Assembly: GCA_963677485.1 (NCBI GenBank)
Contig: OY781964.1
Location: forward strand, 576,001 to 640,000
DNA: 64,000 bases
DNA from: Armatimonadota bacterium
GTDB lineage: Bacteria; Armatimonadota; HRBIN16
Direction: 5' to 3'
Shown: one piece after another, positions 2,381 through 18,692 of the stretch
Layout: every line of letters begins with the position of its first letter
Position numbering within the stretch: position 1 is the first letter of the stretch
Translations under genes and position numbers: made by a program
Notes under the pieces: model-generated
Told to the model about the DNA's origin: nothing
Database searches by the model: none
What the model saw: only the letters and a program-made list of their open reading frames with translations

Positions 2381-3769
2381 ATGAATAAGAAGCCGCTACT
2401 GCTTGGTTTTTGCCCCATCGGCAAGTTTGTGTTCAGCCATGAGGATGCCCTTAGGATAAAAGGCCTCCTTGAGGAGAAGTTCGCGGAGTGGGATGTCAAC
2501 TATGTGGGCATTGACGATGTGCTGCCTGACGGCATCGTGCGCTCACAAAAGGACGTCACCCCAGTGGTGGAGCACCTTCGCAAACAGGGCATCGACGCTC
2601 TGTTCATCCCGCACTGCAACTTCGGCACCGAGGGTGCGGCCGGTGTGATCGCACGGGAGCTTGGTGTGCCGGTATTGCTCTGGGGACCGCGGGACGACGC
2701 GCCGCTGGCCGATGGCACACGGTTGCGCGACTCGCTCTGCGGGTTGTTTGCCACCAGTAAGGTGCTGCACAAACTGAAGGTGCCCTTCCACTACATCGAA
2801 AACTGCTCGGTCGATGATCCAGCCTTCATGAATGGGTTCGACACCTTCCTGCGGGCCGCCAACGTGGTCAAGCGGATGAGGCGGCTGAAAATCGGGCAGA
2901 TTGGGCAACGTATCGACTTCTTCTGGACCACCATCGTGAACGAAAGTGAGCTGCTGGAGAATTTCGGCATCGAAGTACTGCCCATCGACATGGTGGAGTT
3001 CATCGAGAAGGTTCATGCTGAAGCACGCGACCACCACGACGAGATCATGCTGGAAGTTAACGCCACCACAGAACGCTTGAAGTTCGAGGGGTTTGACTCG
3101 CTGGAGCCCATCGTAAACATGATCGCCCTTCGCAATGTAATGCTCCGCGTGGCCGAATCCGAGCAGCTCGACGTCTTCTCGCTGCAATCCTTCTCCTCCA
3201 TCTGCGACGCATTGGACTGCATGGTGGAGTATGCCACCGCGATGGTCGCCGATGCTGGGGTGCCAGTTGCCTGTGAGTCGGACATCCATGGAGCGATCAG
3301 CTCCGCCATGCTCTCCGCGGCTTCATACGATAAGGAGCCCATCATCTTTGCGGACTTGACCGTCCGGCACCCCGAGAACGACAATGCCGTGCTCATTTGG
3401 CACTGCGCTTTCCCTGAGAGCTTGAAAAACCCAGATTCACCTGCATCGGTGGGCACGCACTGGATTCTGCCGGGGATTCAATCTGGCTCCTGCCACTGGG
3501 AGATGAAGCGTGGGCCACTCACCGTCGTGCGCTTCGACGGCGATGGCGGGCTTTACAGCACCATCAGCGGCGAAGGGCAAGCGGTGCCAGGACCCAGCAC
3601 GCTCAACACCTATGTGTGGATGGAAGTTCACAACTGGCCAGAGTGGGAGCGTATGTTCATCTACGGCCCATACATCCACCACGTCGCCTGCAGTTACGGT
3701 AACTACACGGATGTCATCAAACTGGCCTGCAAGTTCATTGCTGGCGTGGAACACGAGCAGTTGCCCTAA
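2381..3769 (+). CDS. L-fucose/L-arabinose isomerase family protein
   Basis: NFGTEG, RDSLCG, ACESDIHGA, WHC and YIHH motifs; RBS GAGG. Confidence 0.85.
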   Translation: MNKKPLLLGFCPIGKFVFSHEDALRIKGLLEEKFAEWDVNYVGIDDVLPDGIVRSQKDVTPVVEHLRKQGIDALFIPHCNFGTEGAAGVIARELGVPVLLWGPRDDAPLADGTRLRDSLCGLFATSKVLHKLKVPFHYIENCSVDDPAFMNGFDTFLRAANVVKRMRRLKIGQIGQRIDFFWTTIVNESELLENFGIEVLPIDMVEFIEKVHAEARDHHDEIMLEVNATTERLKFEGFDSLEPIVNMIALRNVMLRVAESEQLDVFSLQSFSSICDALDCMVEYATAMVADAGVPVACESDIHGAISSAMLSAASYDKEPIIFADLTVRHPENDNAVLIWHCAFPESLKNPDSPASVGTHWILPGIQSGSCHWEMKRGPLTVVRFDGDGGLYSTISGEGQAVPGPSTLNTYVWMEVHNWPEWERMFIYGPYIHHVACSYGNYTDVIKLACKFIAGVEHEQLP

Positions 3770-3821
3770 CGCAATAAGATCACCGATCAGGTGGTCACAC
3801 TAACGAAAAAGAGGAATACAT

Positions 3822-4616
3822 ATGTCATACCTATTCAGAGACCAATCCTGGCCCAAAATCCAGGAACACATTGATAAGCAGTCACTGTTGATCCTGCCGA
3901 TCGGCACCACCGAGGAGCACGGCCCTCATCTGCCCGTCGACACCGACGCCCGCATCGCTGAGGCGTTCGGCAACAGACTGGCCCAGGAACTCTCACCCGA
4001 TCTTCCGGTGCTGTTGATGGACACCATCCGTTACGGCTATTCGATGCAGATTATGAAGCAGTGGCCCGGCACCATCGTGGTCAGAAGCCGCGTGTTTATG
4101 GATATGGTGTTTGATATCTGCCGCTCCGTTCTGGACATGGGCTTCACCAAGCTTGTCATTCTCGACTGCCACGGGCACCACAGCGGCCCGCTCAACACCG
4201 TCTCACGTGAGCTCTGCGATGCTTGCGGGAAGGCGGTCTCGATCATCAGCCCAGCCCATATGTCGCGTGATGCCTTCAACGCGATCCGAAAATCACCGCA
4301 GGGTGGAGCCATCCACGCCTGCGAATGGGAGACCTCGCTCTGTCTGCACCTGAACCCTGAAGCGGTCGATATGTCGCTGGCCACCGATGTGGACCAGATG
4401 AACTACCATACGGAATTCGTGGCCGGTGACGGCTTCATGGGCCGCCAGATGGTCACATGGTCGACCTGGTATCTGCAGCCCAGTCAGACTGGCACCTACG
4501 GATCGCCCACCTTCGCGACCGCCGAGACGGGCAAAATCGTGATGGACGCCGCGGTTGAGAACTCCACGCGCTTCCTGCGCCAATACTGGGAGACACCATC
4601 ACAGCAGATTTTGTAA
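3822..4616 (+). CDS. Creatininase-family amidohydrolase
   Basis: LPIGTTEEHGPHLPVDTD, DCHGHH and HACEWETS motifs. Confidence 0.9.
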   Translation: MSYLFRDQSWPKIQEHIDKQSLLILPIGTTEEHGPHLPVDTDARIAEAFGNRLAQELSPDLPVLLMDTIRYGYSMQIMKQWPGTIVVRSRVFMDMVFDICRSVLDMGFTKLVILDCHGHHSGPLNTVSRELCDACGKAVSIISPAHMSRDAFNAIRKSPQGGAIHACEWETSLCLHLNPEAVDMSLATDVDQMNYHTEFVAGDGFMGRQMVTWSTWYLQPSQTGTYGSPTFATAETGKIVMDAAVENSTRFLRQYWETPSQQIL

Positions 4617-4640
4617 GGGCCCTTTCCGTAGTTTCCGGCC

Positions 4641-4669
4641 GTAGGGATGACCCTTGTGGGCATCCCTAC
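4641..4669. repeat. GTAG-type REP palindrome
   Basis: GTAGGGATG-ACCCTTGTGGG-CATCCCTAC; same family as the copies at 28514-28704 and 30526-30611. Confidence 0.75.
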
Positions 4670-4703
4670 AATCGAGATTACCGGGTAACAAGGAGGTAAT
4701 ACC

Positions 4704-5798
4704 ATCGATAACGCAGCTCGCACACTGCTATATAAGCCAGACTGGGCGATAGCCCAGAAACGCTGGAACGCCTTCTGGGACTGCGGACCGACAGACAGAC
4801 CATGCCTGTGCGTGACCGCTCCGCGGCCTGTCACGTTGCCGCCGGAACCGGAATACCGCACGATGGAGGACTTCTACTTCGACCCGGAGTATGTCTCCAA
4901 CCGGATACTGAGGATGATGGAGTCCACATGGTTTGGCGGCGAGACGGTGCCCTCCTACAACTATCTCATGGCGGGTTATGCGCTGGGATGCGGGCCTGGG
5001 GTTGAGTTCGCGAAGGACACCGTTTGGCACCCCAGAAACTGGAAGAGCATTGATGATCCCGTGCCCTGGCACCCGGGACCAAATGATCCCTGGCGTCCGA
5101 AGATGGAAAAACTGCTCAATCGTATCATCGAAGCCTCGAAAGGCAAGTTCCTTGTGGGCTATGTCTGCCAGACGATGATGAATGATCTGCTCGCTGTTTC
5201 GCGTGGCACCGAGCAGTTTCTGATTGACCTCGCGACCAATATGGATACCTGCATCCTGCGCCTGAGCGAGACACTCCCGCTGTGGCTGGAGGATATGGAG
5301 CACTTCAGTCAGCTCGTGGATGCCCATCAACCGGGCTGCGGGCATGTGTGGGCTGACCTGTGGTCAGAGCAGCCGTTCGCCATCTCGCAGTCAGATATGT
5401 CTTGCATGGTCTCGAAGCAGATGTTTGAGAGCTATGCGCTGGCCGAAGTGGACTTCCTGGGTGAGCACTACGACCGTATCTGGTATCACCTTGATGGTCC
5501 AGGAGCAGTGCGCCACCTGCCGTCGTTGCTGAGCCGTCCGCATGTCCGGGCCATCCAATACGTGCCGGGTGATGGGGTTCCGTCGAATGGCCCCCACTGG
5601 ATGGAGGTCTATCGGCAGGTTCAGGAAGCCGGCCGATGCCTGGACATCACCGTACCGCTGGAGAATGTGGAGTATTTGGTGCGCCATTTGAGCCCCGAGG
5701 GGCTGCGCATCAACACCTCGACAGCCACCATCGCACAAGGCGAAGAGCTGCTCGATGCCGCCGTGAACTGGTGCGGTTCGGATTGGAACAAGGCGTGA
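4704..5798 (+). CDS. Uroporphyrinogen decarboxylase/methyltransferase-like TIM-barrel protein; probable ATC start
   Basis: C-terminal YHLDGPGA..HL, IQYVPG and LSPEGL. The frame is open upstream of GTG 4812 (YKPDW..AQKRWNAFW...DRP) to ATC 4704, 7 nt after AGGAGG. Confidence 0.75.
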   Translation: MDNAARTLLYKPDWAIAQKRWNAFWDCGPTDRPCLCVTAPRPVTLPPEPEYRTMEDFYFDPEYVSNRILRMMESTWFGGETVPSYNYLMAGYALGCGPGVEFAKDTVWHPRNWKSIDDPVPWHPGPNDPWRPKMEKLLNRIIEASKGKFLVGYVCQTMMNDLLAVSRGTEQFLIDLATNMDTCILRLSETLPLWLEDMEHFSQLVDAHQPGCGHVWADLWSEQPFAISQSDMSCMVSKQMFESYALAEVDFLGEHYDRIWYHLDGPGAVRHLPSLLSRPHVRAIQYVPGDGVPSNGPHWMEVYRQVQEAGRCLDITVPLENVEYLVRHLSPEGLRINTSTATIAQGEELLDAAVNWCGSDWNKA

Positions 5799-5835
5799 TG
5801 ATGAGGTATTCACTCAACACTCACCTGAAAGTTCA

Positions 5836-5898
5836 CCATACTTCACCATATAATGACATTATATCTTGATATATATGGCGTATATTGGTAATATATGG
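5836..5898 (+). promoter_or_regulatory. Promoter of the DeoR gene with a phased CCA/TGG array
   Basis: TTGATA 5866-5871, 17 bp spacer, TG-n-TAATAT 5889-5894. CCA at 5836/5846 and TGG at 5876/5886/5896. Confidence 0.65.
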
Positions 5899-5927
5899 TG
5901 GAATACAAACGAAATGAGAGGTGTCCG

Positions 5928-9376: not shown

Positions 9377-11976
9377 TTGAAGTATCTTGGCTGCGTGTTA
9401 CTGATTTGCGTGATGGCGTCTGTGAGCAAAGGTGGTGTGATGGCTGCGAATACCAACCCGTCGGCTCCATTCATCAACTCCTGGCTGGTGATTGGCACGT
9501 TTGAGAATGACACATCGAACTCAGGTTTCGATACTGACATCGTTGGTGAATCGCAAATCGCACCGAGTGCTCAGATGGTCACTGCGGGGAAAACATGGCG
9601 GTATTTCGACGACCGCCTGTTTAGCCGCAACTACGACGACTACCAGGACCTATTCAGCTACTTCAAAACCAAGAGACATGAGTCGGTGGCCGCCAGGGTG
9701 GCCTACGCCCATGTGTATGTTTACACTCCCAGGCCTCAGCAGGGCGAGTTACGCCTTGGCGCGAACAATGAAGTCAAGGCATGGGTGAACGGCAAACTGG
9801 TCGCGTCATCGGACGTTCCAACGCCCTATCGTGACACACTGAAGTCTGTAATCACACTAGACACCGGCTGGAACCGGCTGTTACTCAAAATCGTCAACAA
9901 GCAAAATGGACGGTTTGGGTTCTACGCCAGAATCTGTGACGTCAACGGAAAGGCCTTGTCCAACCTCACCTACAGCCCAGGCGGCGGATCTGGCACCCTT
10001 GCGATCTGCACGCAGGCGATGAATGATATCGGGTCGGCTACCATGCCCGCCGCATTCCGGGAGTGGCCATATGTCGAGGCTGATCCAGTGAATGCGGTGA
10101 GCAAGCGAAATCAGCAGCTCATCAGCGGCCACACGGACATCGTGCTCCACGCCTCGCCCTTCCAGTTTACGGCTCAGGGCGGCACCCCACCATATAGATG
10201 GCGTCTGCTCTCCGGTAGTCTGCCACCCTGTCTACGTCTGGGTAAAGACGGCACCATATCTGGTACGGCAGCATATGATGCCAAGCTGGTGAACTATGAG
10301 TTCAAGCTTCAGGTTACCGACGCCAATGGTCACGTGGCCTCACGAATTCTGACCATCAAACTGAATGAACGTCCCAATAGATGGTATGAAGCTGCGAAGC
10401 TGGTGGGACTGATTCACGGCCCCGAGAAAGTGGCCGATGACCAGATCCCCCGATTGGCCAGCCTCATGAAATCCGAAGGTTACGGTGTGGGTATCCCCAT
10501 ATCCTACGACAACGGTGACTTTGAATTCCGCTGGCCTTCGAGCTTCGACCCTGGCCGCGCAGATACCATCGGAAAGTACAAAGCGGCACTGGAAGCGCAC
10601 GGCCTGAAGTTCGGCATGTATATGGGCAACATCGCAGGACCCAACGTGAGAACCAACAACGGGATTCTGATGGTGGAAGAGGCGATGCGCAGATACCATC
10701 CCAAGGTGCTGTGGTTTGACTGGGGGGCGGATGTTTCGGGCTATGAATCGATCGATGCCCTCTACTCGATGGTGAAGAGCATCGACCCTGAGACGGTGAT
10801 CGTTAAGAACGGCTTTCAATTGCTCTACCATGGCGACTGGGATGTGCTCAGCCTTGAAGGTTTCTGGGCCTGGGGCAAGTATTACTGGAGCATCTGGCCC
10901 AGTGAGCTGGCCTGGCCGAAAAAGAGCGTGGTCGAAAGCTGGCGTCTGATCACGGATCCAAATGGGAGTCTGCCAAAGATATCAACCCCGATTGGAAGAT
11001 GTATATGCGGGTCGTCATCTCGATGATCGGTGAAGGCCAGGTCGCCAACCTCGACCACAGTGCCACGCTGGTATCCGGCCTGGAACGCGATGGGGTGCTG
11101 CACAAACTTGAGGAATCGCCAATTTCGGTCGCTCATTTCAACATGGCGGCATGGGCGAACCCTGCAGGTATGCCATCGCTTACCGAATCCTACACCCAGG
11201 TGGATCAGGGTCCACTGGATGGCAGTACATATGGTTACAACACCATTAACATGAGTCGCGACGCCATCTACATCCATATGCTCAAGAACCCGTTTGGCAG
11301 AACCGGCATGCCGACTAATAGCACACTAACGCTCACCAGATGCAAACAAAAAGTGAAGAGTGTGGTCTGGATGAACGGCAACCAGCCATTGAAGTTCGTG
11401 CAGACCGGCGGGAAGATCAGCATCAACCTGACGGGTGTGGCCGCCGACGAGATCGACACGATTTTGAAGATCAACATTCAAGCCGCGCATCCGCATGTTG
11501 CACTGAAGCCTTTTGTGCCCGCGCCTGTGGCGGTGGAGCCGCTGCTGCCGGCAGGGAACCTGGCCTATTGCAAGCCGGCGAAGCTACTCAGCAACGATGG
11601 CATCACCGAACTGGAAGCCAGCAGCGGCACATCCGAAGCGAGATGCGGTGTGGATGGCGACCCCGACACTGTGGCGCAGGGAGCCTGGGAGTGGGCCTGG
11701 ACATACCAGCTCGATCTATTGAAGAGCTACACCCTCCGCACAGTGCGGATACAGTTCGCGAAGACATGCTGGGCGACCGACTACAAGCTCTTGCTGTCAA
11801 AAGACGGCAAGGCTTGGAAAGAGGCTGCTCACATCACGGACGGCAAAGGCGGCACCGTGGTCCATGATCAGGACGGCATTTCAGCCCGCTATATACGGAT
11901 CACCGCATTGAAGCCTGATGGGCCCGGTCAGGAAGGTGCCCAAATGGGCATCGCAGAGTTTCAGGCTTACGAGTAG
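9377..11976 (+). pseudogene. Secreted multidomain glycoside hydrolase (GH29/alpha-fucosidase-like, with Ig-like and F5/8-type domains), frameshifted near 10960
   Basis: Signal peptide, Ig-like GGTPPY...LP..L.L, catalytic-like VLWFDW, C-terminal discoidin (VDGD..T, ARYIRI). ORFs 9341..11026 and 10999..11976 join by a -1 shift (…ITDP/KWESAKDINPDWKMYMR…). Confidence 0.7.
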
Positions 11977-11988
11977 ACGCCCCACTTG

Positions 11989-12017
11989 CTGGTAGTGCCC
12001 GTTCACGGCACTACCAG
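11989..12017. terminator. Hairpin between convergent genes
   Basis: CTGGTAGTGCC-CGTTCAC-GGCACTACCAG, an 11-bp stem overlapping the hydrolase stop codon. Confidence 0.55.
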
Positions 12018-13552
12018 TCGTTTTGCAGCAGCCACAGGATACTGCCTATGGTCACAGGCTCATCGTCAAAGCCGCCATGGCAGGTCGATTTTGTGCTGGC
12101 TCCATCACCGCCGTCTACCTCTGACCAGACCATGCGATGCGAAGCGGCACTGAAGAAACCTCGAGCCCACTCCACGCCAGGATAGTGCGCGGCATCATAA
12201 CAGGCGGCGCGCACATAGTATCTCTGCATACCCAATAGTGGCTTGTCGCTTTCGTCCTCCAAAACACCTGAGACGAAGTAGAGCAGTGAGCTGGGGTATA
12301 CCACCCTGGCTATCGGTCCTATCACATCCTTAGCCATCGCGTCGGCCAGTTCGAGGGGGTCCTTCATCCCAAACAGGCGCACGCTGCCGACCTGGGCTGA
12401 GCATGTGGTCATCGCCCTCTTGAATTCATCGAAGCTGACGGCTGGTGCCAGTAGAATGATGTCAAACTTAACCTCGGCGGGAAGCACATTTTGAGCGGCC
12501 TTGAGGAAGTTGCAGATATAGATCGCACCTGTCGAGTGGCCCACAAGCGTGATCTTCGGTGCCTCTAGGCCGTCCTCTATGTGTTTCGCCAACCGGGACA
12601 GAAACTCACTGCCGCCAGGCTCCTGCCCGGGCACCACAACATCGGAAAAGGCGTCTGCCGTATCTTTCTTCATCTGGTCCCATAGAAGCTGTTTGCCAAT
12701 CTTGGCCACATAATAGGCTTTGTAAACCTCTTCGACTACCGTGGCATACAGCTTGTGGTCACGCCCTTTCAGATAGCGTTTGACCACCTCCAACAAAATC
12801 ATGGCGATCATTCCTATCGCACCCTGCAGCGACTTCTGCGGGATACCCTCAACACGAGACACACCCTTCAGCTCATCCAGAGTGTCGCGGTCCATCAAGC
12901 TCATATCGGGGCTCCAGGCCTCCCCTTCCAACAGCTTTCTGCTCTCATCTCTCGGGGTCAACCTGGCCAGCGCATCTTGAAACCGCTGGTCCTGTGCAAG
13001 GTCCTGCTCGATGAAGTCCATATCATCGGCGGTGAGTTCCGCTACGGAATCCGTGGGTTTGCCTGACGGCAGTATATCAAAGTCTTGCGAAGGCGGTTCG
13101 GCCAGCTCGTAGGCGAACCATCTGTCGATTTGGGTGGCGACCTGCTCGCTGTCGATCTGCATCGTCTCAGGCCTCAGGCCATCGGGTACCCCGAGCTTTC
13201 GTTTCGTGTACTCGGACACCTTGCGGATCAGTTCATGGAAGATGCTTTCGCTGGCGATGTCGTGCAGGTTGTTACACACCGTCTCCCACGGACCGGATTC
13301 CCAGACGAAGAACACCGGATAGGCCTTTGATTCAGAGTAGGGTTTTGTGAGCCCGTCCACAATCTTCTGGCCCAACTGATAGGAAACCAGCCCTCCATGA
13401 AAGTGGATCACCATGCGCTCAAGTCCGCTCTCCGAGTAGTTCTTGAGAAGCGCATCGATGTCTTCCGCCTGGGTGTCCGTCTTACTGGAGAACTTACCAT
13501 CCTCAAGATGGATGCAGTGCAACTTATCTAGCTTATCGCCCATAATCATCAT
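12011..13552 (-). CDS. Alpha/beta-hydrolase-fold protein
   Basis: HFHGGL oxyanion-like motif, nucleophile elbow VGHSTG, LLAPA and a C-terminal HGGFD; AGGAGG upstream. Confidence 0.8.
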   Translation of the reverse strand: MMIMGDKLDKLHCIHLEDGKFSSKTDTQAEDIDALLKNYSESGLERMVIHFHGGLVSYQLGQKIVDGLTKPYSESKAYPVFFVWESGPWETVCNNLHDIASESIFHELIRKVSEYTKRKLGVPDGLRPETMQIDSEQVATQIDRWFAYELAEPPSQDFDILPSGKPTDSVAELTADDMDFIEQDLAQDQRFQDALARLTPRDESRKLLEGEAWSPDMSLMDRDTLDELKGVSRVEGIPQKSLQGAIGMIAMILLEVVKRYLKGRDHKLYATVVEEVYKAYYVAKIGKQLLWDQMKKDTADAFSDVVVPGQEPGGSEFLSRLAKHIEDGLEAPKITLVGHSTGAIYICNFLKAAQNVLPAEVKFDIILLAPAVSFDEFKRAMTTCSAQVGSVRLFGMKDPLELADAMAKDVIGPIARVVYPSSLLYFVSGVLEDESDKPLLGMQRYYVRAACYDAAHYPGVEWARGFFSAASHRMVWSEVDGGDGASTKSTCHGGFDDEPVTIGSILWLLQNDW

Positions 13553-13913
13553 TACCTCCTTCCCATTTTACCTGTAGTCGACCGGCTGTAGTCATATTAC
13601 CCGTTTTCTACGCAGGCGCAGGCTGGCATTATTACGGGATTCGGGTTTTGTGGGGCAGACGTGGGGCGGAAGGTGGGGGCATGTGAACGCTGGATGTGGT
13701 GAGCGGGTTAGGCGAGATTGTGGATCCACGGTTCCGCGAACGACTATGTAGTGTCAATGTGTGCGTCATCCTGAGCGCGGCAGTTCTGCTATTTTTGGGT
13801 TTGAACAAATGGCCAGGGATTGCTTAAAACAGATCGGAAGTAGAGAGTCAATCAATATTCAAACCTTTGCTTGTATGGCTGTTCGCATATTCATATCCGG
13901 TTGTATAGGTACA

Positions 13914-16853
13914 TCACTGTAGCCTCGGATTTTGCTCGATAGGAAATCCAGGAGGCGTTGGTTTGAATTTACTAGATTCACGCTGAGCTTCAAAATCCCA
14001 TTTTTGAAATTGCCTAAGGGACTGAATGTCAATGGTGGTTGCTAGGAAGGTCGTATTATCTCCCCCTTTTATTGTTACCATGTCCATAGATTCTGTTCGT
14101 GTGGGCTGCAAAATTCTCGTATCACCGTATTTTGATGTATTTGCTTGCGCTATATAGCAATGCAAGTCTCGTACTGTTGACTCAACGATATTCGAAAAAT
14201 AATTAACATCGCGGTTCAATTCCGTTACAATTAACAAGTCGATTAGGCCCTTGAATTTACATCGGTCTGCTATATCTGCTAATTCATAACAATCAAATAA
14301 AGTGAAATATATGCCATGCCAATGCAGAAGCCAGTAATTCTCTTGAATGGTGGGAACCATCAGTCGATATTTGTGCTTAATGTCAAATACTTCAGCCGGT
14401 GCATAATGCCTTTTAAGACGATATACAGGAATACATGACCTATAACCTGATTCATCTTTGAATGGCATCAATGCAATTACTTCATTCCACACATATGTCT
14501 GTTCAACTCTGTATTCCAAGCCACCAACTAATCCGATTTGCTCTTTACGAGACCATGCATTTAGCGTTGGTAACCATGTTCGTGGAATGCTAAGCTCTGG
14601 AAAAACCACCACATCAATCCTATCGCCACTATGGTAGCGATACGACGATATCTGATTGAGTAACTTGTTTAGTTCTTTCAATCTGGTTTTGAATAACGTA
14701 TGATGATTGGACAGGCAGGTTAAAACTTCTTCATCATTCACATGCAGATTGACTATTGCTATGTTGATATTTTTAGGGGTTTTGTCTTTGTCCATGGAGA
14801 TAACACTGTATGATTCATGCTGGTTATCGGTGTGCGCATGCAGATATTTATACTTATGGATTTTTTCGTATGTGTCATGAGCGTACTGGTAAAGATCGAA
14901 GGTAATATTACTTTCTGATTGACAGCCTATTGATAGCCTTTGCATCTCGCGTCCAAAATGTACTAGTTCTTCAAAATGAATATACCTAGGCGTGTAATCA
15001 AGCTTAGTTTGGTTGAGTATGTTGATAGTCGGTATACCGTCGCCAATCAGTGATCCATCATAATCTGTATAGTTTAGTAGAGGACATCGAACATAGTGGT
15101 GTCGGATCATGTTAGATTTACGAAAATATTCCGCTATGGTCGTAGGGACCGCAGGAACAATGGCAGCCAATCCATATGCCATTGCTTCACAATGATTGAG
15201 GTGATGTAGTAAAAATGTGCTCACATTTGTAGCGATTGATTCATTTTTTATATGATCTATTTTACTAATTTCTTTGTGTATTAGGTCGGTAAACATTTTT
15301 AACGCGTTACGGTCATCTATTACGATGAAGAGCGTAATCACCTTTTCCCACAGATCGTAAAACTCAATGGAATTAGCCCCTTTAAAAAATGTTATAATGC
15401 CTCTTATTGAAGTTTGATCTGGTTTTTGGGAGGTATCCAAATAGAAACTGATTTGTTTGGCTAAATACACAGATACTTCATATCGATTTTCGCATATGCC
15501 TGTTACACTGCGGAACTTATTTTTAGATCCGTTGTACAACAAATCATATGCTGCCTCTTCCATAGATCGATCATCTTCATCAAGAGGTAATAACCTGAAT
15601 GCACTGGCATTGGCTTCAAGCTGCTGTTTGAATTTATTAAGCCCTGCAGAGGAGTAGTTTGCGTCGAAATATTGAACAACGAACTTGCTTGGCTGGAGCT
15701 TGATATTTCGATGTTTGGTTAAATGTAGAGATTTATTGCCGTCGCCATCATTACCTTAAAATACACCGCTGTGAAGCAGAATATCGTTTACTCTGTTACA
15801 GATTCCTAATGTGCTTGGGTCGTCTAGTGGGGGTAGCGAAAAAACCAATAGGATGTCATCTATATACCTGCCATAATACGCAGGCATGAGGTTGTGTAGA
15901 ATATCATTATCAAACTCTTTGAGGTACCAGTTGGCGAATATCGGTGAGCTTGGTAACCCGATGGGTAGCAAGCCAGCAAATTCTACATTATAAAATGTTT
16001 CTATGTCGACCTTAGCGACTTCCGAATATGCCTCATGTATAGCATTAACTAAATCGATTAGTCCACAAGTATCGGTATTTTTGGAACAACTTTCATCAAG
16101 CGCAGCTGTTCGCAAGGTCGCAATGATGTTTTTAAGTTTGGTAAAGTCCACATCAACATTATAGAAAAACTTCTCAATGTCGAGGCCAACGATGATGACA
16201 CTTTTTCGATCTTGTGATAATAATGACTGTGCTTTACTTATACCATTATCCCGCCAGTTTGAGTACAGTGGATGGTAGTTCCTGAATAATTTAGTTGAAT
16301 CATCATTATTCCCTAGACACTTGTCAAGTCGTGAACCATAGCATACCATCTCTGGTTCATCCAATAGATGATCTAGGAGAAATCCTTCCTCCATGATCCA
16401 TAAAACGCAAATGATATATAGTTCAATCGGTCCATCAAAGAAAAAATTAACATTATCGATGGCGTATGATTTGTCAGGATGCCGATTGCTGATACATTTC
16501 GGTTCATCTTTATCTTTAGTCCCACGATCTATGTCACCTTTGCTTTCCGTTGAATCTACAATATCTAGTCTATCTTCGCCATCATTCCCTGTGTCTATAC
16601 TTCTTACATTGCTTTTAGGAACAACCAAATATCGTATTTTCTCAAGCCAATCTATAAAACGCTGGTTCTTATTTGGATTCGATGAGTGCAGCACGCTATA
16701 GACATTCTTTAGCCTTATTTGAAGAGTTCCTTCGGTATCATCTATCTCAAATCTAGCTAGTTTCTCACGTAAATAAAGATTAGATTTTTCATAATAAACA
16801 AATTGCTTAAGCTTTTTATATGCTTGAATAACTCTATCTTGAGTAACTGACAA
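13914..16853 (-). pseudogene. Reverse transcriptase-nitrilase fusion (DRT1/UG1-UG5-like anti-phage RT) interrupted by one in-frame TAA at 15756-15758
   Basis: RT motifs DIEKFFYNVD, LPIGLPSSPIFANWYL and YGRYIDD; nitrilase triad FPE, RLKRHY and DCYE. The 64 codons between the TAA and ATG 15563 are open and in frame. TTG start at 16853 after AAGGAG. Confidence 0.85.
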
Positions 16854-17069
16854 ATGAAACTCCTTTTGGCTGCCACAAAATCGACAGCACAATCGTATTG
16901 ATCACATAGTTTTCATGTTTATCGATCTTATTGGCTCAGCCATGAACTCCTTACCATGACAGCCAGCATAGTCTAGGTTTCTCATAGATGATATACCTAA
17001 TGGTAGATAAACTAATGCCCTGACCGTTGGCTTAAGCTGTCATCGTTATAAACATGAGTCGATCCCTCC

Positions 17070-17387
17070 TTAGGCCGCATAGAGCTCCCGCCCTTCCGCA
17101 AGCACGGTGCGGTATATCAAGCCGATGTTATCCTTGTGCCGTTCCAGAAGCGAGGGTATTGTGACCAAGACGTCTACAGCGAATGGAATGCCGAAAAGCT
17201 TCGTATGGATATACCCAGCCACACCACGACGGTCGGTACCTTCGGGCATGACGACCAGCATGTCAATGTCGCTGTCCGCATCCATCTCACCACGAGCAGC
17301 CGAACCGAATAGAATGATGCGCTCGGGATGGACGGCATCAACTATTCGCTGCACTATCTGGTCTAGCTGGTCTTCTGTAGGGTTCAT
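17070..17387 (-). CDS. Minimal nucleotidyltransferase (MNT, HEPN-MNT antitoxin-like)
   Basis: LFGSAARG...SDID signature; 105 aa. Confidence 0.9.
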   Translation of the reverse strand: MNPTEDQLDQIVQRIVDAVHPERIILFGSAARGEMDADSDIDMLVVMPEGTDRRGVAGYIHTKLFGIPFAVDVLVTIPSLLERHKDNIGLIYRTVLAEGRELYAA

Positions 17388-17666
17388 TCCAATCCTCCTT
17401 CGGCAAGGCTGGAAATCGATCTGTTATGTACCCTATTATGGCTGGCCCAGCCAGATTCGTCAAGTCACAATAAGCTCAATCCCATGCCCATTTTCAAACC
17501 TTTAGCAATCAACTGGCACATTTGACACCAGTGCGCACAAACCCACTTGACTTTGGGTTTCGATATCCTGCATAGTTATGTTATATGCGAACCTGCAAGC
17601 ACTGATATCCGTGGTAAAAACAGTCCTTATCTATAGTGGCAGCGGTCTACCGCATGAGGAGAGAAT

Positions 17667-18692
17667 ATGACTATCGACGAAAGTATTCATGGAAACACCA
17701 CAGTACTAAAGCTGCAAGGCAGAATTGACGCCACCAGTGTGTCGGATACGGAACAGCACCTCAAAGGCGCGTATGACAGAGGTGTTCGGCAGATGGTGCT
17801 TGACCTTTCGGGTGTGGACTACATCAGCAGTGCCGGTCTTCGCGTGCTGCTCACCTCGGCCCGTCGCCTGCAGCAGGGCAAAGGAAAGCTGGTCATCGCC
17901 ACACCGTCGGCTCAGGCAAAGCACATACTGGACATGGCCGGTTTCTCAGCCATCATCCCTGTCATCGATAGTATCGACGACGCGATCGGCAGTTATGCCC
18001 CGCCCAAAGAAAAGACGGCTTCCGAGCCGATGATGCTCAGCTTTGCGGAGGAAATCTACCTTCTCGCTCTGGACGACAAACAGGGTGACATCAAGTCGCT
18101 CCCCGCCTCCGCACTCGATTACGCCCTCTCAGGTGCGCTGCTGATGGAGCTCGCGATCAAAGACCGTATCGACACCGATCCCGAAGGCTTGAAGGTCACA
18201 TCGTCTGAACCAACCAAAGACCCCCTGCTGGACTACGCTCTGGAGAAAATGAAGCTACAGACGCATCTACAGCCAACCTCTGTGTGGCTCAACGACTTCG
18301 CAAACCGGGCTGAGCGTCTGCAGAAGCGGGTGTTAACACGGCTGATTGATAGGTCCATCCTGAAACAAGAAGACCGCAAAGTGCTCTGGGTGTTCAACGT
18401 GCGCCGGTATCCCATGCAAGACAACTGCGAAGTGAAAGAAGTGCGCGAGCGGTTACGCGACATCATCCTCAGCGGCGACATCCCCGACCCTCGCGACATC
18501 GTGCTGATCAGCCTCGGCAACGCTTGCGGCCTACTCGATGACCTCTTTTCTGAGGATGAAATTCCTACCGCCACCGCGCGCATTACCCTTCTTGAGAAGA
18601 TGGACCTGATCGGCCAGGAGACTACCATAGCCATCCATGAGATTCAAGATGCGCTGGCGTTGATGTCCACGCACATGATGTGGAGTATGTAG
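17667..18692 (+). CDS. STAS anti-sigma-factor antagonist fused to a GPP34/GOLPH3-like domain
   Basis: N-terminal DLSGVDYISSAGLRVL; C-terminal LSFAEEIYLLALDD..GALLMELA..RI..DPLLD. Confidence 0.8.
   Translation: MTIDESIHGNTTVLKLQGRIDATSVSDTEQHLKGAYDRGVRQMVLDLSGVDYISSAGLRVLLTSARRLQQGKGKLVIATPSAQAKHILDMAGFSAIIPVIDSIDDAIGSYAPPKEKTASEPMMLSFAEEIYLLALDDKQGDIKSLPASALDYALSGALLMELAIKDRIDTDPEGLKVTSSEPTKDPLLDYALEKMKLQTHLQPTSVWLNDFANRAERLQKRVLTRLIDRSILKQEDRKVLWVFNVRRYPMQDNCEVKEVRERLRDIILSGDIPDPRDIVLISLGNACGLLDDLFSEDEIPTATARITLLEKMDLIGQETTIAIHEIQDALALMSTHMMWSM

What the first reader, a model, noticed from the sequence alone, without database searches (positions are those of the whole stretch)
13914..16853. 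Anti-phage-type RT-nitrilase with one in-frame stop between the RT core and the rest of the protein
Seen: the two track ORFs are one reading frame of 979 codons. TTT-TAA-GGT falls ~35 codons after YIDD, and the following 64 codons (…IKLQPSKFVVQYFD…NASAFRLLP…) are open and protein-like. The RT motifs and the nitrilase E-K-C triad are intact, I saw no other lesion, and the DNA is visibly AT-rich. Established: RT-nitrilase fusions define DRT type 1 and related UG1/UG5/UG6 RTs. Inference: a recent knock-out of a costly defence gene, a sequencing error, or (speculatively) a read-through or split design that uncouples the RT from its effector. I see no small membrane partner gene of the kind described for DRT1, so this may be a variant system.
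Basis: partly seen in the sequence, partly recalled or inferred. Interest (0 to 1): 0.8.

Follow-up and report, generated by a model that had tools for sequence, protein, structure and literature searches.

The report
Stop-broken UG5 RT-nitrilase defence gene
This is a recently acquired anti-phage reverse transcriptase-nitrilase gene of a known family (UG5-large, also called DRT11) that one real stop codon has most likely switched off, which makes it an ordinary young pseudogene.

Summary
On the minus strand, 13914-16853 is one 979-codon frame with a single TAA at 15756-15758, 33 codons after YIDD. Both halves match the PADLOC RT_UG5-nitrilase model.

The TAA is probably not a sequencing error. 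Logan contigs of three runs from two studies match the stretch with no differences.

The gene and a small nucleotidyltransferase gene lie in an AT-rich insert of about 3.75 kb. A same-genus genome has an empty site there.

No relative shares the break. All 80 related loci are continuous across that position. One is decayed, with four stops elsewhere, and 12 are the known two-gene UG5-small form, split about 270 codons later.

After the stop there is no in-frame ATG, GTG or TTG for 64 codons. That stretch holds family-invariant residues, including a serine near the position of the DRT1 priming serine. I found no suppressor tRNA and no unusual RNA fold.

Best reading (0.8): a recent nonsense null allele. 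Read-through and a functional split are unsupported. The missing membrane partner is normal for this family: 31 of 299 members have one (Mestre 2022), and DRT11 works without it. Interest is low.

The parts
13914..16853 (-). Whole interrupted UG5-large (DRT11-type) RT-nitrilase gene: 979 codons plus the terminal stop, with one internal TAA
16853..16871 (-). Likely start: TTG at 16853-16851, with an AAGGAG Shine-Dalgarno 7 nt upstream
   Evidence: Homologues begin their alignment here.
15759..16853 (-). N-terminal ORF of 365 codons: RT fingers and palm up to the helix after the palm (model helix 361-374)
   Evidence: Pfam RVT_1 1.5e-9; PADLOC RT_UG5_small 3.6e-96 and RT_UG5-nitrilase 1.4e-75; model
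15855..15866 (-). YIDD catalytic motif of the RT (P0001 residues 343-346)
   Evidence: Y343, D345 and D346 are invariant in 69 sequences.
15756..15758 (-). In-frame TAA (P0001 position 379), in a coil after helix 361-374, at an alignment column that varies among homologues
   Evidence: Present unchanged in contigs of runs X1, X2 and X5.
15564..15755 (-). 64 orphan codons with no in-frame ATG, GTG or TTG. They hold the family-conserved Q400, K403, S414, S430, F432 and P436. S430 (15603-15605) is my candidate DNA-priming serine.
   Evidence: Alignment to DRT1 9yfd. pLDDT falls to 53 in residues 431-440. The priming role is an inference.
13917..15563 (-). Downstream ORF of 549 codons from ATG M444 (no Shine-Dalgarno): helical repeat region plus nitrilase domain
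13917..14795 (-). C-N hydrolase (nitrilase) domain, about residues 700-992, with E766, K827 and C868
   Evidence: PADLOC RTasNitrilase 6.6e-35; DRT1 9yfd 1.3e-5 with C868 aligned to C1116; Foldseek hits to amidases and nitrilases, E 2e-10, target TM 0.68-0.70
17070..17387 (-). 105-aa nucleotidyltransferase (MNT-like) gene that shares the inserted segment. It is not a conserved partner of UG5.
   Evidence: Pfam NTP_transf_2 3.3e-11; PADLOC PDC-S09 1.8e-11; 1 weak hit in 80 related loci
13746..17497 (.). Inserted AT-rich segment of about 3.75 kb that is missing from the same-genus genome G001. The BLAST flanks stop at 13667 and 17498. I read homology by eye up to about 13745.

Best explanation
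A UG5-large (DRT11-type, class 3 UG/Abi) reverse transcriptase-nitrilase gene arrived by horizontal transfer in an AT-rich insert of about 3.75 kb. It then suffered one nonsense substitution (TAA) 33 codons after the YIDD motif, and the allele is a null. When intact, enzymes of this class make template-free, protein-primed DNA that stays covalently attached to the protein. In DRT1 this DNA drives assembly of the nitrilase effector, and defence needs both active sites (shown for DRT1 and DRT11, inferred here). Here translation from TTG 16853 stops after 365 codons. The product is fingers and palm only, without the conserved segment that follows, the helical repeat region and the nitrilase. That following segment includes the invariant serine I take as the likely priming site. 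The only downstream start (M444) has no ribosome-binding site and would skip that segment. By analogy with RT-dead DRT1, which is monomeric, non-toxic and non-defensive, any C-terminal product would also be inert. The rest of the gene is unblemished, so the break is young.
For: There is one TAA in a 979-codon frame, against 61 and 111 stops in the other two frames. Both parts match RT_UG5-nitrilase. Every column that is invariant across the 17 aligned sequences, and across the 69, is kept on both sides of the stop. The full-length read-through folds with confidence (mean pLDDT 86.5, pTM 0.89), and the stop lies in a coil. Contigs of 3 runs from 2 studies carry the same letters. All 80 related genome loci are continuous across the position. 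67 are uninterrupted, 12 are the two-gene UG5-small form split near residue 650, and 1 is decayed with 4 stops elsewhere. In the protein databases, 0 of the 2 non-self 'shorter' hits break at this site. The C-termini of 14 short representatives are scattered, and 3 of the 10 looked up have full-length cluster mates. No in-frame start occurs for 64 codons, and M444 has no SD. There is no suppressor tRNA among 59 tRNAs, and TAA ends 774 of 2635 long frames. The RNA after the stop folds no better than shuffles (z = +0.35). The site is empty in the same-genus genome G001 and the gene's GC is 38% in a 54% GC genome, so the acquisition is recent. Mechanism comes from PMC13275509 (abstract, sections 5, 7, 10) and PMC13436386 (abstract, sections 23, 24, 28).
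Against: I saw no raw reads, only contigs. Contigs drop minority variants, and the runs may all derive from one strain or culture. No RNA or protein data exist for this locus, so expression and low-level read-through are untested. There is no close relative (best full-length identity 34%), so I could not measure relaxed selection. A single lesion in an otherwise perfect 979-codon gene is also what a tolerated or functional stop would look like. The priming-serine assignment is an inference from an alignment that ends 4-6 residues before the DRT1 site. The DRT1 paper states that S402 is not conserved in other class 3 DRTs.
Confidence: 0.8

Rival explanations
1. Leaky or conditional read-through: the TAA is occasionally decoded, by basal misreading or by a suppressor tRNA brought in by a phage. 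A small or infection-triggered dose of full-length RT-nitrilase would then be made, keeping a toxic abortive-infection enzyme low until needed.
For: The 64 codons after the stop are open and conserved. The whole frame is otherwise intact. Abortive-infection effectors are costly (PMC13275509, discussion).
Against: No relative has a stop there, 0 of 80 loci. The host has no suppressor tRNA among 59 tRNAs and uses TAA as a common terminator. No stable structure follows the stop (z = +0.35). From general knowledge, TAA is the least leaky stop and TAA-G is not a leaky context. A young nonsense mutation explains the open frame equally well.
Confidence: 0.06
2. Functional split: the N-terminal RT core and a separately translated C-terminal protein assemble non-covalently, as the RT and nitrilase of UG5-small do from two genes.
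For: UG5-small shows the family tolerates a two-gene layout (12 of 80 loci; PMC9226505 passages). The stop lies in a surface coil between secondary-structure elements.
Against: The natural split lies about 270 residues later, between the RT module and the nitrilase. Here there is no start codon for 64 codons and no SD at M444. A C-terminal product would therefore lack Q400, K403, S414 and S430, which are invariant or nearly so in 69 sequences. No relative is split here.
Confidence: 0.04
3. Assembly or sequencing artefact, or a minority or laboratory-arisen allele: the natural population carries a sense codon.
For: Only contigs were available. The X1 and X2 contigs place the stretch at the same record position (11222-15122), so they may come from one strain sequenced twice. 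Defence genes are easily lost in culture.
Against: Three runs, three samples and two studies, at word depth 9.5, 13.5 and 40, show 0 differences over 13500-17400. The error would have to recur identically each time.
Confidence: 0.07

Closest known systems
DRT11 = UG5-large RT-nitrilase of Sinorhizobium meliloti RMO17 (PMC13436386)
   Same: Single polypeptide of about 1000 aa with an N-terminal RT (YxDD), a connector and a C-terminal nitrilase. It has no adjacent membrane protein and no detectable ncRNA (Rfam found none here). It lies near a nucleotidyltransferase module. Same PADLOC family.
   Different: This copy is broken by a TAA after the palm. It is distant from all database members (at most 34% identity full length). 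I did not compare it directly with the S. meliloti protein. It sits in a two-gene insert between housekeeping-type genes rather than in a defence-rich megaplasmid region.
DRT1 = UG1 RT-nitrilase, cryo-EM 9YFD (PMC13275509)
   Same: Class 3 architecture. The profile of this family hits 9yfd at 1.7e-32 over the RT and nitrilase parts. The nitrilase Cys aligns with C1116. A conserved Ser lies in a flexible stretch about 80 residues after the catalytic Asp pair.
   Different: DRT1 is about 1230 aa and a separate PADLOC family (Drt1a only 2.9e-12 and 5.8e-15 here). The paper says its priming Ser402 is not conserved in other class 3 DRTs.
UG5-small two-gene systems (RT of about 650 aa plus a separate cluster-249 nitrilase)
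   Same: The RT part here is most similar to these: 37-41% identity and RT_UG5_small 3.6e-96. They show that the RT and nitrilase can work as two proteins.
   Different: Their gene boundary lies after the helical region (about residue 650), with an overlapping second ORF in another frame (12 loci). Here the break is at residue 379 in the same frame, with no restart.

Membership tests
UG5-large / DRT11 (class 3 UG/Abi RT) | Best profile match to UG5 models rather than to other UG/DRT groups | tested here: met
   PDLC03780 RT_UG5-nitrilase 1.4e-75 (N) and 4.9e-146 (C); RT_UG5_small 3.6e-96. The next best hits are Drt3a 8.1e-14 and Drt1a 2.9e-12.
UG5-large / DRT11 (class 3 UG/Abi RT) | RT domain with an intact YxDD palm motif | tested here: met
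   YIDD at 343-346. Y343, D345 and D346 are invariant in 69 sequences. Pfam RVT_1 1.5e-9.
UG5-large / DRT11 (class 3 UG/Abi RT) | C-terminal C-N hydrolase domain fused in the same polypeptide, with the Glu-Lys-Cys triad | tested here: inconclusive
   The domain and residues E766, K827 and C868 are present in the same frame. The TAA at 379 means the encoded products are not a fusion as the DNA stands.
UG5-large / DRT11 (class 3 UG/Abi RT) | Downstream transmembrane protein (clusters 85 or 1858), an optional feature | tested here: not met
   There is no codirectional membrane ORF next to the gene. This is not defining: 31 of 299 members have it (PMC9226505), and DRT11 works without it (PMC13436386).
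UG5-large / DRT11 (class 3 UG/Abi RT) | Confers phage defence that needs both catalytic domains | not testable with these tools
   Needs plaque assays. With the stop, activity is expected to be lost (inference).
DRT type 1 (UG1) | Best match to Drt1a models and a length of about 1200-1300 aa | tested here: not met
   Drt1a gives only 2.9e-12 and 5.8e-15, against 1e-75 to 1e-146 for UG5. The length is 979 codons.
Nitrilase (C-N hydrolase) superfamily fold | Alpha-beta-beta-alpha sandwich fold matching solved nitrilases and amidases | tested here: met
   Foldseek on the model hits 6ypa, 1j31, 2w1v and 3ivz, E 2e-10 to 3e-9, target TM 0.63-0.70. Pfam CN_hydrolase itself did not hit at E <= 0.01.

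The most novel reading that the evidence does not exclude
The TAA could be a gate and not a lesion. On this reading, the abortive-infection enzyme is held off by a stop placed exactly between the polymerase core and the segment carrying its presumed priming serine. It is made full-length only when termination is suppressed, for example by a phage-borne suppressor tRNA or stress-induced read-through. That would be a stop-codon-gated defence gene.
Probability: 0.03. Interest if true: 0.8.

Novelty: new member of a known kind. Interest (0 to 1): 0.15.

Why it matters
It matters little beyond annotation. The two ORFs should be annotated as one pseudogenised UG5-large (DRT11-type) gene, not as two genes or a new system.

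It is a clean natural example of a freshly acquired abortive-infection gene lost by a single nonsense change. That fits the view that such genes are costly.

Two by-products may be useful. This is a very divergent UG5-large sequence (at most 34% identical to full-length relatives found) that still folds confidently. The family has an invariant serine (S430 here, 69 of 69 sequences) at the edge of a low-confidence loop about 84 residues after the catalytic aspartates. It is a testable candidate for the protein-priming site of UG5 enzymes, by analogy with Ser402 of DRT1.

Tried and rejected
Shared or convergent stop. I checked 80 genome-contig loci, 91 near-length and 3 shorter database proteins, and the 150 best of 1239 representatives. 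Of those I aligned 14 short ones (320-428 aa) and looked up 10. None breaks at the homologous codon.

An intact allele elsewhere. An exact 30-nt search next to the stop found nothing in metagenome contigs or genome contigs. It was not found in 60 relatives. Of 400 other genomes of the phylum, only 2 carry a UG5-large gene: one intact at 1004 aa, and one open to its contig end, where the TGA reported by the tool lies before the ORF start. The third hit, in G001, is only a nitrilase-part match in a different 1260-aa frame.

Read-through signals. There is no suppressor tRNA and no special RNA fold.

ncRNA. Rfam gave 0 matches at E <= 1 in 13000-18000.

Origin on a plasmid or phage. blastn of the 3.83-kb segment found no match in either collection.

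MNT as a partner. There is 1 weak hit in 80 loci, so I rejected it.

Membrane partner. My crude hydropathy scan found a codirectional membrane ORF beside 21 of 65 loci. In several loci the script picked another large ORF as the reference, so the count is rough.

Expression. No RNA holder was listed among the runs.

Run X6, a wastewater metagenome, holds only two identical 151-nt pieces (15158-15308 and 15322-15472) and does not cover the stop.

Taxon name. The nearest record is an unnamed metagenome chromosome, and I did not pursue it.

Complex prediction was not used, because halves of one gene tend to pass by construction. Supplements of the papers were closed. Mestre's Tables S2-S4 and the DRT1 extended data on 'DRT5S/L' may bear on partner frequencies and on whether those enzymes are UG5. 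The text I read does not say.

Full report
WHAT IS THERE. The feature is on the minus strand. The ORF listing gives two same-frame ORFs, 15756-16892 (378 aa) and 13914-15563 (549 aa). Translating 13914-16853 (-) gives one internal stop and the terminal one. The DNA reads GTA TTT TAA GGT, with TAA at 15756-15758. The likely start is TTG 16853, which has AAGGAG 7 nt upstream. The upstream TTG 16892 has no such site. From TTG 16853 the frame is 979 codons and the TAA is codon 366. I use the numbering of the read-through protein P0001 (TTG 16892 = 1, X at the stop). In it, YIDD is 343-346, the stop is 379 and the next in-frame start is M444. The coding frame has 1 internal stop, against 61 and 111 in the other two frames. 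From base composition, 64 open codons have P of about 0.011.

WHAT FAMILY. Pfam finds only RVT_1 (1.5e-9) in the N half and nothing in the C half. PADLOC places both halves in RT_UG5-nitrilase: N 1.4e-75, and C including the 64 codons 4.9e-146. The N half scores even better against RT_UG5_small (3.6e-96), and the C end matches RTasNitrilase (6.6e-35). Drt1a scores only 2.9e-12 and 5.8e-15. A word-indexed search of 5.8 billion proteins gave 91 hits. The best full-length ones (946-1100 aa) are 30-34% identical over 97-98% of the query. The UG5-small RTs of about 650 aa are 36-41% identical over 63-67%. It is therefore a divergent member of a known family.

In alignments of 17 and of 69 sequences, every invariant column is kept on both sides of the stop. 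These columns include Y343, D345, D346, K403 and S430. The stop falls in a column that varies among homologues (T, S, R, N, G, Q, H).

An AlphaFold2 model of the read-through protein with the 69-sequence alignment is confident (mean pLDDT 86.5, pTM 0.89). The stop lies in a coil just after helix 361-374. Foldseek matches the C-terminal domain to solved amidases and nitrilases (E 2e-10, target TM 0.63-0.70). By sequence, the only solved relative of the nitrilase part is DRT1 (9yfd, 1.3e-5), and C868 aligns with C1116. The family profile hits 9yfd at 1.7e-32 over both the RT and nitrilase parts.

IS THE STOP REAL? Six listed runs hold the stretch or part of it, five of them at half its words or more. 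None is on record as RNA. I laid four. Logan contigs of X1 (study P1), X2 (study P2) and X5 (study P1, another sample) cover 13500-17400 with 0 differences, at word depth 9.5, 13.5 and 40-54. X6 covers only two 151-nt pieces away from the stop. An assembly error is therefore unlikely. The caveats are that these are contigs, not reads, that rare variants are dropped, and that X1 and X2 may be one strain.

IS THE STOP SHARED OR DESIGNED? It is not shared. All 80 related loci from species-representative genomes are continuous across the position. 67 are uninterrupted over at least 93% of the match. 12 show the known UG5-small layout, with 68-70% of the match in one frame and then an overlapping nitrilase ORF in another frame. 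One (L082) is decayed, with four in-frame stops at other places. The two non-self 'shorter' hits start inside the RT and run through the site. Among the 150 best of 1239 representatives, short proteins end at scattered positions. Of 10 looked up, one is labelled partial, three have full-length cluster mates (656, 1037 and 976 aa), and the others lie on contigs of 1.5-4.6 kb. Broken copies of this family do occur sporadically.

After the stop there is no ATG, GTG or TTG for 64 codons, and M444 has no Shine-Dalgarno. The genome has 59 tRNAs, none with a stop-reading anticodon, and TAA ends 774 of 2635 long frames. The 131 nt around and after the stop fold no better than shuffles (z = +0.35).

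CONTEXT. GC is 0.35-0.42 in the gene, 0.51-0.61 beside it and 0.544 genome-wide. The gene is single-copy in its 5.22-Mb one-contig genome. It was not found in 60 relatives. In the same-genus genome G001, window 11935-13667 and 17498-18690 align at 86-87% identity and lie only 65 bp apart. By eye, homology runs on to about 13745. About 3.75 kb is therefore an insertion. It carries the RT-nitrilase and, upstream on the same strand, a 105-aa nucleotidyltransferase (NTP_transf_2 3.3e-11; PADLOC PDC-S09). An imperfect 14-16-nt direct repeat ending in ACCTTT lies at 13855-13868 and at the right junction, 17490-17503.

I saw no integrase, tRNA or Rfam family in the segment. It has no match in the plasmid or phage collections. 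The flanking genes look like housekeeping genes: a weak alpha/beta hydrolase, a STAS-GPP34 protein and an ABC substrate-binding protein. The nucleotidyltransferase is not a conserved neighbour of UG5 genes (1 weak hit in 80 loci).

HOW IT WORKS, OR WORKED. Shown elsewhere: DRT11, the UG5-large gene of S. meliloti, protects against podovirus-like phages at low multiplicity of infection. It needs both the RT and the nitrilase, and it needs no membrane partner or detectable ncRNA (PMC13436386; abstract and sections 23, 24, 28 read). DRT1 and two enzymes the authors call DRT5S and DRT5L make DNA without a template, primed on the protein itself. In DRT1 the primer is Ser402, in an unresolved loop (382-478) after the catalytic D324/D325. 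The DNA adducts drive tetramer and filament assembly of the nitrilase. RT-dead DRT1 is monomeric, non-toxic and non-defensive (PMC13275509; abstract and sections 5, 7, 10 read).

Inferred here: the intact ancestor of this gene worked the same way. The family profile aligns to DRT1 up to residue 396, which corresponds to E426 here. Four residues further on lies S430, invariant in 69 of 69 sequences. It sits at the end of helix 416-430, before a block of pLDDT 53. This is my candidate priming serine. The DRT1 paper says its own serine is not conserved outside DRT1, so this remains a hypothesis.

The TAA therefore cuts the enzyme between the polymerase core and everything it needs: the priming segment, the helical region and the effector. 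The most likely state is a null allele. Since 4.95% of single substitutions in this frame would create another stop and none has occurred, fewer than about 59 substitutions (2%) have accumulated since the break, at the 95% level under a uniform model that ignores indels.

COMPARISON AND NOVELTY. It works like DRT11/UG5-large and belongs to that family by profile, motifs and fold. The 'fused in one polypeptide' feature fails only because of the stop. The missing membrane partner is the majority state: the partner is present in 31 of 299 members (PMC9226505 passages). My own rough scan found 21 of 65. This is a new, divergent and broken member of a known kind.

VERDICT. It is most likely an ordinary young pseudogene of a known defence family (0.8). 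The rivals are residual read-through (0.06), a functional split (0.04) and an artefact or minority allele (0.07). Interest is 0.15.

Noticed in passing
window 15603-15605 (-), residue S430 of the read-through protein: A serine is invariant in 69 of 69 UG5 sequences. It sits at the end of a helix, before a low-confidence loop, about 84 residues after the catalytic Asp pair. It lies within a few residues of where the DRT1 priming Ser402 would align, so it is a candidate protein-priming site for UG5 enzymes.
   Followed up: partly
window 17070-17387 (-): A lone 105-aa MNT-type nucleotidyltransferase (GS..D.D motif; PADLOC PDC-S09) has no HEPN partner visible downstream. It shares the insert with the RT-nitrilase but has higher GC (about 0.44-0.50), so the insert may be composite. 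The S. meliloti DRT11 locus is also reported next to a nucleotidyltransferase module.
   Followed up: partly
window 13855-13868 and 17490-17503: An imperfect 14-16-nt direct repeat (ATWTTCAAACCTTT) has its second copy straddling the right junction of the insert. The empty site in G001 shares only ACCTTT. It may be an attachment-site or target-duplication remnant, or it may be chance. No recombinase gene lies in the insert.
   Followed up: partly
window 16506-16589 (-), residues 102-128: An acidic and lysine-rich insertion of about 25 residues in the RT fingers region is absent from the aligned homologues and is modelled at pLDDT 40-45.
   Followed up: no
run X6 (wastewater metagenome) on window 15158-15308 and 15322-15472: Two 151-nt contigs are identical to the gene at depth 2, so the same element or strain occurs in an independent metagenome. 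The pieces do not reach the stop.
   Followed up: no
L082 (genome contigs), 2912-5917: A UG5-large homologue in a Bacteroidetes MAG has four in-frame stops. It is the only decayed copy among the 80 loci.
   Followed up: partly
G001:C1:3634707-3635465 (L008): The same-genus genome lacks this gene. It has a 1260-aa open frame elsewhere whose C-terminal part matches the UG5 nitrilase model (1.7e-21), possibly a DRT1-like RT-nitrilase.
   Followed up: no
window 17667-18692 (+): A fusion of a STAS domain with a GPP34 (Golgi phosphoprotein 3-like) domain, conserved at 94% protein identity in the same-genus genome. It is an unusual bacterial architecture.
   Followed up: no
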